DNA from: Escherichia coli
GTDB lineage: Bacteria; Pseudomonadota; Gammaproteobacteria; Enterobacterales; Enterobacteriaceae
Assembly: GCF_030013205.1 (NCBI RefSeq)
Contig: NZ_CP122648.1
DNA: 64,000 nt
Direction: 5' to 3' (one strand)
Part shown: positions 1 to 3,000 of the stretch, piece by piece
Position numbering within the stretch: position 1 is the first letter of the stretch
Layout: each line of letters starts with the position of its first letter
Made by a program: the position numbers

Positions 1-3000
1 GGTCACCTTTACTCTCAGGGAAAAATTAAGCGTGCCAGAGAAAGCATCAGCACGTAGCGGTTCACAAAAAACCATCGCCAGACAGCAGACCCAGAATGGC
101 AGCGAACAGGCACCAGACAAAGGCATGAATACGCAAAGTTCGTTCTGGAAAAAAATCAATGATGCCGTTGGCTCTGGTCTGGATGCTGTTGGCATCGGGA
201 GCGTGAAAGAGGAAGGGAAAACATGAAATTGATACAACGCTGCATGATTAATGGCGAACGGGTGGAAATTGCCGATATAAGCCTTGTTCTTACCCTGAAT
301 GCTGCCGGTCGTGGCTTCATTTCTGTTAACAATCTGTCATCCGAACACAGCCTTGCCGGCGCAATGGTACAAATTGATCTCGGTCGTGACGGTGAAGCAT
401 GGCGCTATTTCTCCGGCTATATTGAGCGCGATCAACCTGCTGAAAATGGCTCACGTCGCCTTTTTATTCGTGAAGCGGCTGCTGTGCTGGATTTTGATTT
501 CCCCTGCTCCATGCAACACCCGACGTTGCGGGAGGTACTCGATAATCTGGGGCGACAAAGCGGTATCGTTTTTATCACTCCGGATGCGGATTATGCCAGT
601 ATACCAACTCCCTACATCACCCACAGCGGCAGCGGAGCACAACTGCTCAGCCAGCTGGGGCGAGCATTCAGTATCAACGATTACGTCTGGCACCCTATGC
701 CGGACGGTTCTGTATTTGTGGGAAGTGCAGCTGATTCACGATTTGCCAGCATTACAATGCCGGATATTCCGCAACAGTACACACTCGGGCAAAGCGGCGG
801 AAACAGCATCGACATCATGTTTATGGAAACTGTGCGACCGGGCGTGAACCTTCCGGCCGGGCGCATTACCCGTGTAGCCCTCAACAACGAGAAAATGACC
901 CTGACATGGGAGCGCCTTACCGCCACGGGCAGCCCTGTCTCCAAATCACCATTACGCAGACAGATGGAAACACAGTTCCCGGAACTGGCCAGCGGCACAC
1001 TACACACCAGGCTGGCGCGCGTCATTGCACCAACGGAATCCGCCACCCTGGGCGATGTGGCCGACAGCTTCCGTCCACGCTACGCCGTGGACGTGCAACT
1101 GCTCGATGAGGACGGCAACGATAAAAGCGATACGCCTGTTTACCCGGCAGTCCCACTCCCCGTCCCGATGGCTGGTAGCGAGGCGGGATGTTTTGCCTAC
1201 CCGCCGGCAGGCACCATCGTGGAAATATCTAACATTGAAGGGCGCCCGGATAAACCTGTTATCAGGCAAATCTTACCTGCTGGCCATAACCTGCCTGATG
1301 TAAAGCCCGGCGAACAACTGCAGCAACAGCGCGCAGAAGTGTTTCAGCGCGTCACGACTGACGGAAGCTGGCACAGAGAAACAGACCAGCAAATCAGGGA
1401 GCAGTCAGCCACCCGCACAATTAACAGTGATGCAGAAGAGCGCACCACAACAACCAGAACAACCACAGTACGGGCAAACGACATAACCAGTGTTCTGGGA
1501 ACCAGCAAGCTGGCGGCAGGACAAATAGAGCACCTTACTACCGGCCATTACGCGATCGCAGCCAGCGAGCATATCCAGATGGTAGCGCAGGATTTGCTGA
1601 CTAAACTCAAAGGGGCAATATCCACAATTGAGCAGGACCTGACTGAAAACGTGGGAGGCCGCAGAACATGCCGGGCGGACGGCGGTCTGAAGTTTACAGC
1701 CCCGACAGTATTTATTGGTCGCGGTGGCTCACGGGAAAAATCCGAACTTAATCTGCTGACGTTGTTGATTGATATTCTGGATCTGATTCAATTGCTGGCC
1801 ACGCACACAGCAAACCACACCCACAGCAACACTGGCGCACCAATGAACAGCGGCGAACTTGCCGCAGATGCCCTGCAGGCTACGAGCCTGCGCGAAAAAT
1901 ACGGCGACCTTATCGCCTGAGCTCCCGACATAAAACCCACATAAACGCCCCATCAAACAACGCACGGTTCCGACCGTGCGTTTTTCATATCCACCACCTG
2001 ATTAATGCGTTCTGCGTGCCATTCCGGCGCTGTATGCACACACCGCGTAAACGGTGTGACGTAAAGTGTGAGGTGACGTAAACCGCGCTACCCCCTCCAA
2101 CCCGCGGGTTTTGTGTCGAAACAGTTTTTCAGTTTTCTGCCGTGCAAAACTGACCGCCAGCCCGCGCAGCAACTGAGGAAAAAGCGAAGATCTGAAATTT
2201 CACGCTTTGAAATTTTTTGCAGTTTTCAGAGGGATTTTTACGATCTCATGAATGGCAGGAGAAAGAAAACAGGCTGATATTAAAAGAGTTTTCATACTTT
2301 ACGTGGGACAAGACGCGATCGCGAAAGGATCGCATCAAAAAATCTTCAAACAACGAAGCCAGACGCGGCGCGGCCTGCGTAAGATTGAGAGTCAAAATTA
2401 AACTGAAAAAAGGATCAATACCGCGCCTCGATCGCACATGACGATCTACGCAGCAACAGGACAAAAAAACCGGCGCGAACGCCGGCGGAAGCATGTATCA
2501 AATGCGTGACTGAATAATGTCTACGGTCGGGAATTTTATATCAAAAGGCTGACAGGCCTCAACGGATTGAAACAAGGGAAAAAACCAGGCTAGAATTCGC
2601 GCGGGTGCCTTTCGGCTGATGGTCGGAGGGAATACCCGAAGGCCGGATGTGGAAAGGCCCCGGAAAACATTTCTGTTTAACCGAGGCCCTAACATATCTA
2701 CCTTAAGCAAGTGATAGGTTAGCGCCTCTCCAACAAAGGAGCAAGCGCTATGTCGCAAAAATCGCTTACGGCCATCACGTTCTGCGTGACGGTAATCCTC
2801 ATCATCTGGATGCTGCACGGCTCGCTGTGTGAAATACGGATGAGCTTCTGGGGAGCGGAGTTTGCGGCGTTCTTACAGTGTAAACAGTAAGGAAACCGCG
2901 ACGGGGGAGCAATCCCCCGTCAATCGGTTGCCAGGGTATGGTCGAAGTGGCACCCAAATTTAAATTGAGGCCCACCAGTAAGAGTGGTGGGCTTAACGCT

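What the first reader, a model, noticed from the sequence alone, without database searches (positions are those of the whole stretch)
2750..2890. Unannotated Hok-family type I toxin gene
A 46-codon ORF below the track cutoff encodes a peptide with the Hok/Gef signature, preceded by a strong RBS and followed by stable hairpins. I found no mok-like overlapping reading frame in either alternative frame, so translation control may differ from the R1 hok/mok/sok paradigm, and the antisense partner is not obvious. It may stabilise the element or act in abortive infection.
Basis: partly seen in the sequence, partly recalled or inferred. Interest (0 to 1): 0.6.

Follow-up and report, generated by a model that had tools for sequence, protein, structure and literature searches.

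The report
Prophage hok/sok toxin cassette lacking mok
The 46-codon ORF is a real, already catalogued Hok-family membrane toxin gene inside a complete hok/sok-type RNA-controlled killer cassette carried by a prophage; the only unusual point is that this subfamily has no mok leader reading frame.

Summary
The ORF at 2750-2890 (+) exists as described. It encodes a Hok/Gef peptide (Pfam PF01848 E 4e-7; PHROG 251 E 2.5e-23). It is not new. The window is an E. coli chromosome and RefSeq annotates this exact protein (WP_000078920.1) as "Hok/Gef family protein". The cassette occurs in 1741 of 5426 complete E. coli genomes, in phage P88 and next to lom in Stx phages. A 2025-26 preprint lists the exact peptide (cluster 72) and reports a one-residue variant as toxic.

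Around the ORF lies a full hok/sok-type transcript unit:
- a promoter and a 5' tac element that pairs with a 3' fbi element, supported by compensatory changes;
- a Sok-target hairpin;
- on the minus strand, a Sok-like gene (about 2709 to 2653) with the same -10 hexamer and start spacing as the annotated sokW.

No reading frame reaches the hok ribosome-binding site here or in most of 23 relatives. Instead the Shine-Dalgarno sequence sits in a conserved hairpin whose 5' arm is also the 3' arm of the Sok-target hairpin. This suggests direct RNA-switch or standby control, which is inferred and only weakly supported by folding energies. Overall this is an ordinary, known toxin with a modest, untested regulatory twist.

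The parts
2567..2596 (+). hok promoter: -35 TTGAAA (2567-2572), 18-nt spacer, -10 TAGAAT (2591-2596)
   Evidence: Consensus scan gives 10 of 12 matches. The -10 is conserved (TAGAAT/TAGATT/TAAATT) in 17 of 18 cassettes. Homology to phage copies starts here.
2603..2996 (+). Predicted full-length hok mRNA (about 394 nt): TSS about 2603, 3' end after the terminator-like hairpin
   Evidence: Rfam RF01794 alignment starts at 2603. MFE -176.9 kcal/mol, z = -7.8. Ends are not mapped experimentally.
2603..2615 (+). tac element (5' end, GGGUGCCUUUCGG)
   Evidence: Pairs with 2942-2955. Of 11 pairs, 4 show compensatory double changes among 17 cassettes.
2656..2688 (+). Leader hairpin 2; its complement is the terminator hairpin of the Sok-like RNA
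   Evidence: Alignment helix 5 has 2 compensatory pairs and 98% of cells paired. It corresponds to the second hairpin of the Rfam model.
2683..2728 (+). Sok-target hairpin (-67..-22); upper stem and loop are hypervariable
   Evidence: Folds as a hairpin in all 20 distinct versions, dG -15.5 to -21.7, z -2.8 to -4.9 where shuffles were run, despite sequence turnover. One copy has GAGGC/GCCUC changed to GAGAC/GUCUC.
2720..2749 (+). SD-sequestering hairpin (UAGCGCCUCUCC...GGAGCAAGCGCUA); shares 2720-2728 with the target hairpin
   Evidence: dG -14.0 here and -10.3 to -14.5 in relatives. All variation is wobble-compatible (helix 7). SD unpaired probability is 0.0, against 0.31-0.89 in hokW, hokC and hokB.
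2736..2741 (+). Shine-Dalgarno AAGGAG of hok
   Evidence: Read directly from the sequence.
2750..2890 (+). hok CDS, 46 aa (Hok cluster 72)
   Evidence: Identical to WP_000078920.1. Median dN/dS 0.25 among relatives.
2752..2759 (+). Start-codon region that pairs with 2861-2868 (UUUGCGGC) inside the CDS
   Evidence: Alignment helix 8: 12 pairs, 100% paired, only one-sided changes.
2900..2921 (+). 3' UTR hairpin
   Evidence: Helix 15: 5 of 9 pairs show compensatory changes. Also seen in the scan.
2929..2936 (+). 3' segment that pairs with the target-hairpin loop (2702-2709) in the full-length fold
   Evidence: Helix 6: 96.5% paired and 1 compensatory pair. The window copy itself is imperfect, with two G-U pairs and one A-C.
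2939..2955 (+). fbi element (UGGUCGAAGUGGCACCC), 3' partner of tac
   Evidence: Homology to phage copies ends exactly at 2955.
2968..2993 (+). Terminator-like hairpin (GGCCCACCA-GUAAGAG-UGGUGGGCU) with a poor U tail
   Evidence: Present in the MFE fold. Not called by the terminator scan. This part differs between genomic contexts.
2653..2709 (-). Predicted Sok-like antisense RNA (about 57 nt): 15-nt single-stranded 5' tail plus hairpin
   Evidence: Placed by homology to the annotated sokW, sokC and sokB. Fold -22.4 kcal/mol, z = -3.0. Expression not shown.
2716..2744 (-). Predicted Sok promoter: -35 TTGCTC (2744..2739, overlapping the hok SD), 17-nt spacer, -10 TAACCT (2721..2716)
   Evidence: Same -10 hexamer and the same 7-nt distance to the start as the annotated sokW of 933W. 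AGG[T/A]TAG is invariant in 23 cassettes. It matches only 6 of 12 consensus positions and was not called by the scan.

Best explanation
Window 2567-2996 is a complete hok/sok-type type I toxin-antitoxin cassette of the 46-aa 'cluster 72' Hok subfamily. It sits as a moron near the right end of a prophage in an E. coli chromosome.

Shown or strongly supported:
- The + strand encodes a roughly 390-nt mRNA whose 5' end (tac) pairs with its 3' end (fbi) in a fold-back structure.
- The leader carries a Sok-target hairpin.
- The ORF encodes a small Hok membrane toxin under purifying selection.

Inferred by homology: a Sok-like antisense RNA of about 57 nt is made from the minus strand (about 2709->2653). 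It pairs with the leader at -92..-42 relative to the hok AUG.

Inferred, mechanism: as in R1, the full-length mRNA is inert, and 3' trimming removes fbi and lets the leader refold. Unlike R1, no mok frame couples Sok binding to hok translation. The hok SD is instead locked in a hairpin whose 5' arm (UAGCGCCUC) is also the 3' arm of the Sok-target hairpin. When the target hairpin forms, the anti-SD is occupied and the SD is free. When Sok pairs with the 5' arm and loop, the anti-SD is released and closes the SD, and the duplex is probably cut by RNase III.

The biological role (prophage retention, help with lysis as for hokW, or phage exclusion) is open.
For: Identity:
- Pfam, PHROG and NCBIfam hits.
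- 43% identity to K-12 HokA and 39% over 31 aa to R1 Hok.
- All seven residues that the preprint reports as more than 80% conserved are present: M1, C12, T14, L26, C27, E28, E37 (and the sequence).
- RefSeq names it a Hok/Gef family protein.
- The exact peptide is in the preprint's alignment. Variants 72_1621 (one residue different) and 72_1589 were cloned and are not among the 3 non-toxic of 45 tested.
- Median dN/dS is 0.25.

RNA architecture:
- Rfam RF01794 matches the leader, E 1e-8.
- The MFE fold pairs the 5' and 3' ends, z = -7.8.
- In 17 cassettes 97.7% of cells are paired against 37-41% when partners are slid, and 15 pairs show double changes, including 4 of 4 in the tac-fbi extension.
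- Homology to P88 and the Stx phages begins at the promoter and ends exactly at fbi.

Sok:
- Same -10 TAACCT and start spacing as the annotated sokW.
- The motif is invariant in 23 cassettes.
- The predicted RNA has a 5' tail and a hairpin.
- The hypervariable stretch coincides with the predicted recognition region.

No mok.

Switch:
- The two hairpins are mutually exclusive and both conserved.
- The SD core is fully paired here, against 0.31-0.89 unpaired in three mok-containing loci.
- In leader-only ensembles the SD-open fraction is 0-0.39 when free and at most 0.02 when the Sok site is blocked, in the same direction in all 17 cassettes.
Against: - No expression data exist for either RNA.
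- The Sok promoter matches only 6 of 12 consensus positions and the simple scan did not find it.
- Rfam and NCBIfam scores are below their curated thresholds.
- Whole-mRNA thermodynamic folding predicts the SD closed (unpaired probability about 0) in the full-length, truncated and Sok-bound states alike. For the window's own leader the SD-open fraction is at most 0.01 even without Sok. The switch is therefore not supported by equilibrium folding for this copy.
- In 3 of 23 relatives (L024, L028, L029) an ORF from an ATG at -103 stays open across hok for 61-79 codons. A leader ORF therefore cannot be excluded for every family member.
- The toxicity evidence comes from a preprint and from a variant, not from this exact sequence.
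Confidence: 0.8

Rival explanations
1. Standby-ribosome control, as in tisB/IstR-1. The SD hairpin is closed in every state. 30S subunits load on the exposed leader just upstream (the Sok-binding region, -92..-42) and slide in when the hairpin breathes. Sok represses by occupying that standby site and by triggering RNase III cleavage.
For: The SD is predicted paired in all states and in all 17 cassettes. The local SD hairpin is -10 to -14.5 kcal/mol. Sok pairs about 25-40 nt upstream of the SD, outside a normal initiation footprint. The tisB precedent is summarised in PMC4147584.
Against: The predicted standby region is itself a conserved, stable hairpin of -16 to -22 kcal/mol rather than an open stretch. 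It does not explain why the anti-SD segment is shared between the two hairpins. No toeprint data exist.
Confidence: 0.25
2. Canonical mok-type coupling after all. An unrecognised leader frame, either a non-canonical start at the mok-homologous position (AUA 2694) or the ATG2647/ATG2619 uORFs, is translated and opens the hok SD, and Sok blocks it.
For: In R1, mok translation up to the hok SD is required (PMC9841398). An ATG at -103 gives a 61-79-codon ORF across hok in three E. coli variants. AUA lies at the position homologous to the mok AUG.
Against: In the window both ATG uORFs end 24 nt or more before the SD, and the AUA frame stops at 2712. These frames are 4 and 8 codons long in 933W and are absent from the Salmonella and Klebsiella copies, which lack the ATGs. 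ATG2647 lies upstream of the Sok-binding region, so Sok would not cover its start. No conserved SD plus start combination exists.
Confidence: 0.12
3. An inactive relic. The ORF and RNA elements are decaying remnants with no current toxin-antitoxin activity.
For: K-12 chromosomal hok loci are often inactivated, for example IS150 in the hokA leader. One Salmonella copy (L010) has lost the promoter and tac. The terminator in the window has a poor U tail.
Against: The ORF is intact at 46-47 codons in all 23 distinct cassettes, with dN/dS 0.25. The promoter, tac/fbi and hairpins are conserved with compensatory changes. The cassette is in 32% of complete E. coli genomes and in viable phages. Close variants are reported toxic.
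Confidence: 0.06

Closest known systems
hok/mok/sok (parB) of plasmid R1
   Same: Small Hok membrane toxin. Long structured mRNA with tac-fbi fold-back. Sok-target hairpin. Cis-antisense Sok whose promoter lies between the target hairpin and the hok start, with a -35 overlapping or adjacent to the hok SD. The Sok terminator is the complement of leader hairpin 2.
   Different: No mok frame. The peptide is 46 rather than 52 aa, with 39% identity over 31 aa. The segment between target hairpin and AUG is about 8 nt shorter, and the SD core pairs directly with an anti-SD. The leader scores below the Rfam gathering threshold, 44.8 against 59 bits.
hokW/mokW/sokW of Stx phages 933W and Sp5 (Takada et al. 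2021, PMC8621323)
   Same: A prophage-borne hok/sok locus with the same Sok -10 hexamer TAACCT and start spacing. Toxicity and Sok antitoxin activity are shown experimentally for hokW. It occurs in the same phages that also carry a copy of the present cassette.
   Different: It is a different locus: 933W 58460-58734, against the lom-adjacent copy at 45486-45865. HokW is 51 aa. mokW starts at -57 in frame. Its leader scores 113.5 bits on Rfam RF01794.
Hok 'cluster 72' of Escalera-Maurer et al. (bioRxiv 10.1101/2025.08.07.668861)
   Same: This is the same family. The exact peptide is in their alignment (id 1628), and two representatives were cloned for toxicity assays.
   Different: That study deliberately analysed only the Hok coding sequence. 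Mok, Sok and mRNA structure were not examined.
HokA of E. coli K-12
   Same: Closest NCBIfam model, 43% identity, and a shared EFAAFL-type C-terminal motif.
   Different: Separate 60% cluster (93 against 72). K-12 annotates a mokA pseudogene overlapping hokA. The window peptide scores far below the HokA equivalog cut-off.
tisB/istR-1 (works-like comparison only)
   Same: The toxin SD is sequestered in a hairpin, the antitoxin RNA pairs well upstream of the SD, and mRNA processing is needed for activity.
   Different: Unrelated toxin. The istR-1 gene is divergent, not cis-antisense. Activation is by 5' rather than 3' processing. No homology.

Membership tests
Hok/Gef toxin family (Pfam PF01848) | Significant match to the family profile | tested here: met
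   Pfam E 4.3e-7, model positions 5-42 of 42. PHROG 251 E 2.5e-23 over the full length.
Hok/Gef toxin family (Pfam PF01848) | About 50 aa with an N-terminal hydrophobic helix and the conserved residues (M1, C16, T18, L30-C31-E32, E41 in the logo of the 2025-26 catalogue) | tested here: met
   M1, C12, T14, L26-C27-E28 and E37 are present with the same spacing (sequence; logo).
Hok/Gef toxin family (Pfam PF01848) | Growth arrest or membrane damage on expression | not testable with these tools
   Reported for the one-residue variant 72_1621 and for 72_1589 in a preprint, not for this exact sequence.
NCBIfam HokA equivalog NF007290 and Hok subfamily NF007279 | Score at or above the curated cut-off | tested here: not met
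   35.8 against 89 bits and 23.6 against 73 bits. The peptide is not a HokA orthologue but a separate subfamily.
hok/sok type I TA locus (R1 paradigm) | Fold-back mRNA: the 5' tac element pairs with the 3' fbi element | tested here: met
   MFE fold. 11 pairs, 4 with compensatory changes, in 17 cassettes.
hok/sok type I TA locus (R1 paradigm) | Sok-target hairpin in the leader | tested here: met
   A hairpin is kept in 20 distinct sequences despite turnover. It aligns to the target hairpin of Rfam RF01794.
hok/sok type I TA locus (R1 paradigm) | Cis-encoded Sok antisense RNA with its own promoter and terminator | tested here: inconclusive
   The -10 TAACCT, the -35 and the hairpin are at positions homologous to the annotated sokW, sokB and sokC and are invariant in relatives. 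The promoter is weak by consensus and there are no expression data.
hok/sok type I TA locus (R1 paradigm) | mok leader reading frame that overlaps or precedes hok and couples its translation | tested here: not met
   No frame reaches the SD in the window, P88, L002 or 933W, and none is conserved elsewhere. An ORF from ATG -103 is open in 3 of 23 variants.
hok/sok type I TA locus (R1 paradigm) | Rfam RF01794 (hok leader / sok) at gathering score | tested here: not met
   44.8 bits against a gathering score of 59, E 1.1e-8. Relatives score 35.6-51.7, while canonical hokW scores 113.5.
hok/sok type I TA locus (R1 paradigm) | 3' processing to an active truncated mRNA, and RNase III cleavage of the Sok duplex | not testable with these tools
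   Requires Northern blots or RACE in wild-type and rnc strains.
Standby-site type I systems (tisB/istR-1 type) | Sequestered SD plus an open upstream standby site that the antitoxin occludes | tested here: inconclusive
   SD sequestration is predicted, but the upstream region is a stable hairpin, not an open stretch.

The most novel reading that the evidence does not exclude
The cluster-72 hok cassettes are a mok-independent variant of the hok/sok paradigm. Sok controls Hok synthesis directly through RNA structure. A shared segment (UAGCGCCUC) either closes the Sok-target hairpin, leaving the SD free, or acts as an anti-SD, closing the SD. Sok binding flips it to the closed state. The hypervariable target loop would give each tandem copy its own private Sok. 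This would be a riboregulatory replacement for leader-peptide coupling in a textbook system that is present in a third of E. coli genomes.
Probability: 0.35. Interest if true: 0.5.

Novelty: already known. Interest (0 to 1): 0.3.

Why it matters
As a gene it matters little. It is a common, already annotated Hok toxin, and its family has been catalogued and tested for toxicity. What could matter is regulatory. hok/mok/sok of R1 is the textbook case of antisense control through a leader peptide, and the literature available here states that mok translation is required. This subfamily is widespread: 1741 of 5426 complete E. coli genomes, P2-like and P88-like prophages, Stx phages, and Salmonella tandem arrays. 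It keeps tac/fbi, the target hairpin and Sok but has no mok, and it locks its SD with the same nucleotides that close the Sok-target hairpin. This gives a compact natural system for testing how an antisense RNA can switch translation at a distance. It also flags two annotation problems: a second, overlooked hok locus next to lom in Stx phages, and the misleading 'MokW-like' label on the Hok ORF itself.

Tried and rejected
1. I first took the locus to be the characterised hokW-sokW of Stx phages because of the 'MokW-like' labels. This was rejected. tblastn with R1 Hok shows hokW/mokW/sokW is a separate locus in the same phages, and the paper's HokW is 51 aa.

2. The 31-codon leader ORF ATG2619..TGA2712 as a mok substitute: rejected. 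It is 4 codons long in 933W and absent in Salmonella.

3. An in-frame N-terminal extension, as in mokC and mokW: rejected. There is an in-frame UAG at -30.

4. An equilibrium-folding test of the anti-SD switch on the whole mRNA gave no difference between states. Leader-only ensembles gave a small shift, consistent in direction. The switch therefore remains a hypothesis.

5. The promoter scan did not find the Sok promoter. It was placed only by homology.

6. PADLOC gave no hit for the peptide or for the TM2 neighbour.

7. The flanking prophage DNA (1-2560) has no near match in the phage collection, so the host prophage could not be named.

8. Steif & Meyer 2012 ('The hok mRNA family') is not held in the library. 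Text searches for mok-less hok loci and for the lom-adjacent locus found nothing. This is a limited search and does not prove that such loci are undescribed.
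Full report
**1. The observation**

AAGGAG lies at 2736-2741, 8 nt upstream of the ATG.

Family evidence is beyond chance:
- Pfam HOK_GEF E 4.3e-7.
- PHROG 251 E 2.5e-23 over the whole peptide.
- 43% identity to K-12 HokA and 39% over 31 residues to R1 Hok.
- NCBIfam's HokA and Hok models hit well below their curated cut-offs, so this is a divergent subfamily and not a HokA orthologue.

**2. Where the window comes from and whether the gene is unannotated**

Rfam finds an rRNA operon, rncO, GlmY, RyfD and ohsC in the window. The region is 100% identical to chromosomes of swine E. coli strains such as K_EC180.

RefSeq annotates the ORF there as WP_000078920.1, 'Hok/Gef family protein'.

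The gene lies near the right end of a prophage. The order is tail-fibre genes, a 565-aa baseplate protein (PHROG 2258), hok, a TM2-domain gene, a Com-like regulator and a DNA methyltransferase. The host genes raiA, bamD, rluD, yfiH and clpB follow.

**3. The unit is a portable cassette**

blastn against phages matches only window 2575/2579-2955:
- 96% to phage P88 (Xuanwuvirus, Peduoviridae), near its genome end.
- About 80% to Stx phages (933W, Sp5 and others), immediately after lom.

Alignment shows that homology begins at the -10 box and ends exactly at GGCACCC (2949-2955). The flanks are unrelated. The prophage DNA upstream of the cassette has no near match in the phage collection.

Prevalence:
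- The cassette is in 1741 of 5426 complete E. coli genomes, with up to 9 places per genome and almost all chromosomal.
- It is in 35 plasmids.
- 46-aa homologues occur in E. coli, Shigella, Salmonella and Klebsiella oxytoca.

In every context retrieved it sits at a prophage extremity or beside mobile-element genes. Examples are after gpD-ogr of P2-like prophages next to serS, himA or pheT, after tail-fibre genes, and next to a relaxase or IS66. In Salmonella it forms tandem arrays of two or three cassettes about 500 nt apart.

**4. It is not hokW**

The 'MokW-like host killing' label in viral RefSeq records is attached to the 46-aa ORF itself.

The experimentally characterised hokW/mokW/sokW (Takada et al. 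2021, PMC8621323; HokW 51 aa, 44% identical to R1 Hok) is a different locus in the same phages: 933W 58460-58734, against 45486-45865 for the lom-adjacent copy. The original 933W record has no feature at the lom-adjacent copy.

**5. Prior knowledge of this subfamily**

A bioRxiv preprint (10.1101/2025.08.07.668861, version of January 2026) catalogues 1264 Hok peptides in 61 clusters.
- The window's exact peptide is in their alignment (id 1628).
- It belongs to their high-abundance cluster 72.
- 72_1621 differs from it by one residue, and 72_1589 is the 933W lom-adjacent peptide. Both were cloned for toxicity assays.
- The text says 42 of 45 tested homologues were toxic and names three non-toxic ones, none from cluster 72.
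- The authors report enrichment of hok in prophages and 'islets' of 2-6 neighbouring copies.
- They state that they did not analyse Mok, Sok or the mRNA because Mok prediction 'is not trivial'.

**6. Anatomy of the RNA**

Promoter and start. A promoter-like site (TTGAAA, 18 nt, TAGAAT; 2567-2596) precedes a predicted start at 2603. Rfam's RF01794 model also begins to align there: 2603-2760, 44.8 bits, E 1.1e-8, below the gathering score of 59. That model matches the sense strand of the hok leader. In 933W the annotated sokW lies on the opposite strand inside the match.

Fold-back structure. The 394-nt RNA 2603-2996 folds with z = -7.8, and its 5' end pairs with 2939-2955.

I aligned 17 distinct cassettes from E. 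coli, phages, Salmonella and Klebsiella. The consensus structure has these properties:
- 97.7% of cells are paired, against 37-41% when the 3' partners are slid.
- 15 pairs show changes on both sides.
- All four pairs of the tac-fbi extension are compensatory.
- Five pairs of the 3' hairpin 2900-2921 are compensatory.
- Two pairs of leader hairpin 2656-2688 are compensatory.

The start-codon region (2752-2759) pairs with 2861-2868 inside the CDS. The loop of the target hairpin (2702-2709) pairs with 2929-2936. In the window copy this helix is imperfect.

These features correspond to the fold-back architecture described for R1 hok mRNA (summarised in PMC4147584).

**7. The antisense partner**

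In the three annotated canonical loci, Sok starts 48-49 nt upstream of the hok AUG, in the loop of the target hairpin. For sokW the -10 hexamer is TAACCT and its last base lies 7 nt from the start.

In the window the matching elements are:
- the same hexamer at the homologous place (2721..2716);
- TTGCTC 17 nt upstream (2744..2739), overlapping the hok SD;
- a predicted start at about 2709/2708;
- the complement of hairpin 2656-2688 as terminator, giving an RNA of about 57 nt.

This RNA folds into a 15-nt free 5' tail plus a -22 kcal/mol hairpin.

The motif AGG[T/A]TAG is invariant in all 23 cassettes examined. The stretch between it and hairpin 2, which is the upper stem and loop of the target hairpin, is the most variable part of the cassette. 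It differs between tandem copies in one array, as expected for a specificity determinant.

Caveats: the promoter matches only 6 of 12 consensus positions, the generic scan did not call it, and nothing here shows that it is expressed.

**8. mok**

In the window no ORF in any frame, counting ATG, GTG, TTG, CTG, ATT, ATC and ATA as starts, reaches the hok SD. The in-frame path is closed by UAG at -30.
- ATG2619 ends at 2712-2714.
- ATG2647 ends at 2704-2706.
- The same two frames are 4 and 8 codons long in 933W.
- The ATGs do not exist in the Salmonella and Klebsiella copies.

Controls behave as expected. The scan finds mokB at -58, and the annotated mokW and mokC start at -57 in frame with hok.

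One exception is recorded. In three E. coli variants (L024, L028, L029) the ATG at -103 opens a 61-79-codon frame running across hok. It is not conserved, and it lies upstream of the Sok site.

**9. How Hok might be translated without mok**

Two conserved hairpins compete for the same nine nucleotides, UAGCGCCUC (2720-2728):
- the Sok-target hairpin 2683-2728 (-15.5 to -21.7 kcal/mol in 20 distinct versions);
- an SD hairpin 2720-2749 (-10.3 to -14.5 kcal/mol), in which CUCC pairs with the GGAG of the SD.

In hokW, hokC and hokB the corresponding outer helix exists, but the SD core is mostly unpaired (0.31-0.89). Here the unpaired probability is 0.0.

The simplest reading has three states:
- Target hairpin formed: SD open.
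- Sok paired to the 5' arm and loop: anti-SD released and SD closed.
- Full-length mRNA: target region held by the 3' end and SD closed.

Equilibrium folding supports this only weakly:
- In whole-mRNA ensembles the SD is closed in all three states in all 17 cassettes.
- In leader-only ensembles the open fraction is 0-0.39 without Sok and at most 0.02 with the Sok site blocked. The direction is the same everywhere, but for the window copy the open fraction is at most 0.01.

A standby-ribosome mechanism of the tisB/IstR-1 kind is the main alternative. RNase III cleavage probably contributes in either case, as reported for R1 and partly for hokW.

All of this section is inference.

**10. Is it functional?**

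- The ORF is 46 codons in 22 distinct cassettes and 47 in one.
- Median pairwise dN/dS is 0.25.
- The invariant residues include S25, C27, E28, E37 and the C-terminal AAFLQCK.
- One Salmonella copy (L010) has lost the promoter and tac while keeping the ORF, which shows that decay does occur.

The window copy has every element intact.

**11. Role**

Nothing here discriminates between the following:
- prophage retention by post-segregational killing;
- assistance to lysis on induction, as shown for hokW (PMC8621323);
- phage exclusion, which that paper cites for R1 hok/sok and T4.

PADLOC has no model that hits the peptide.

**12. Verdict**

The finding is real and correctly interpreted as a Hok-family type I toxin gene, but it is already annotated, widespread and catalogued. 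The added value of this analysis is fourfold:
- delimiting the whole cassette;
- placing the Sok-like gene;
- separating this locus from hokW;
- showing that absence of mok is a property of the subfamily, tied to a distinctive SD/anti-SD arrangement that could be tested experimentally.

Noticed in passing
L005 (933W AF125520) 1526-1880; L006 432-756: Stx phages carry two unrelated-looking hok loci: the known hokW/mokW/sokW near the right end, and a second 46-aa hok cassette just after lom. The second has no feature in the original 933W record, and the Sakai RefSeq record shows only 'hypothetical protein' under the match.
   Followed up: yes
L003 2670-2810; L004 1675-1815: Viral RefSeq and PHROG 251 label the 46-aa Hok ORF itself 'MokW-like host killing'. 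This is a misnomer, because the ORF is the hok homologue and there is no mok.
   Followed up: yes
L013-L018 (Salmonella enterica contigs), e.g. L015 3001/3640/4347 and L017 2005/2503/3001: There are tandem arrays of two or three complete cassettes about 500-700 nt apart at prophage ends. Copies in one array differ mainly in the target-hairpin loop and upper stem, which suggests that each copy has its own non-cross-reacting Sok.
   Followed up: partly
L010 about 2815-3210: One Salmonella copy keeps an intact 46-codon ORF, SD hairpin, target hairpin and fbi but has lost the promoter and tac. It is probably a silenced copy.
   Followed up: partly
window 2603-2760; L006 432-606: Rfam RF01794, named 'sok antitoxin', matches the sense strand of the hok leader (from tac to the hok AUG), not the strand on which sokW is annotated.
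   Followed up: partly
L024, L028, L029 (E. coli), ATG at -103 relative to hok: In three variants the ATG homologous to window 2647 opens a 61-79-codon frame overlapping hok. In the window it stops at 2704. It is unclear whether this is chance or an occasional mok-like frame.
   Followed up: partly
window 3026-3322 (+), 3512-3709 (+), 3654-4460 (+): Directly downstream of the cassette lie a TM2-domain membrane protein gene (PHROG 10292), a Com-family regulator and a type II-like DNA methyltransferase (PADLOC MTase_II, E 8e-64). The prophage then ends before raiA. The weak hok terminator might allow read-through into the TM2 gene.
   Followed up: partly
window 41376-41452 (-): Rfam finds ohsC RNA at 106.6 bits. 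This is the antitoxin of the shoB-ohsC type I system, so there is a second type I toxin-antitoxin locus in the same window.
   Followed up: no
window 1-2560: The prophage tail and baseplate region flanking the cassette has no megablast match in the 50,697-record phage collection, although the hok cassette itself matches 198 phage records.
   Followed up: partly
window 34135-34966 (-), 37750-37964 (+), 50651-50798 (+), 7815-7953 (+): Ordinary core-genome RNA elements are detected at full score: AsrC, rncO, GlmY and RyfD. An rRNA operon lies at 10951-16054.
   Followed up: no
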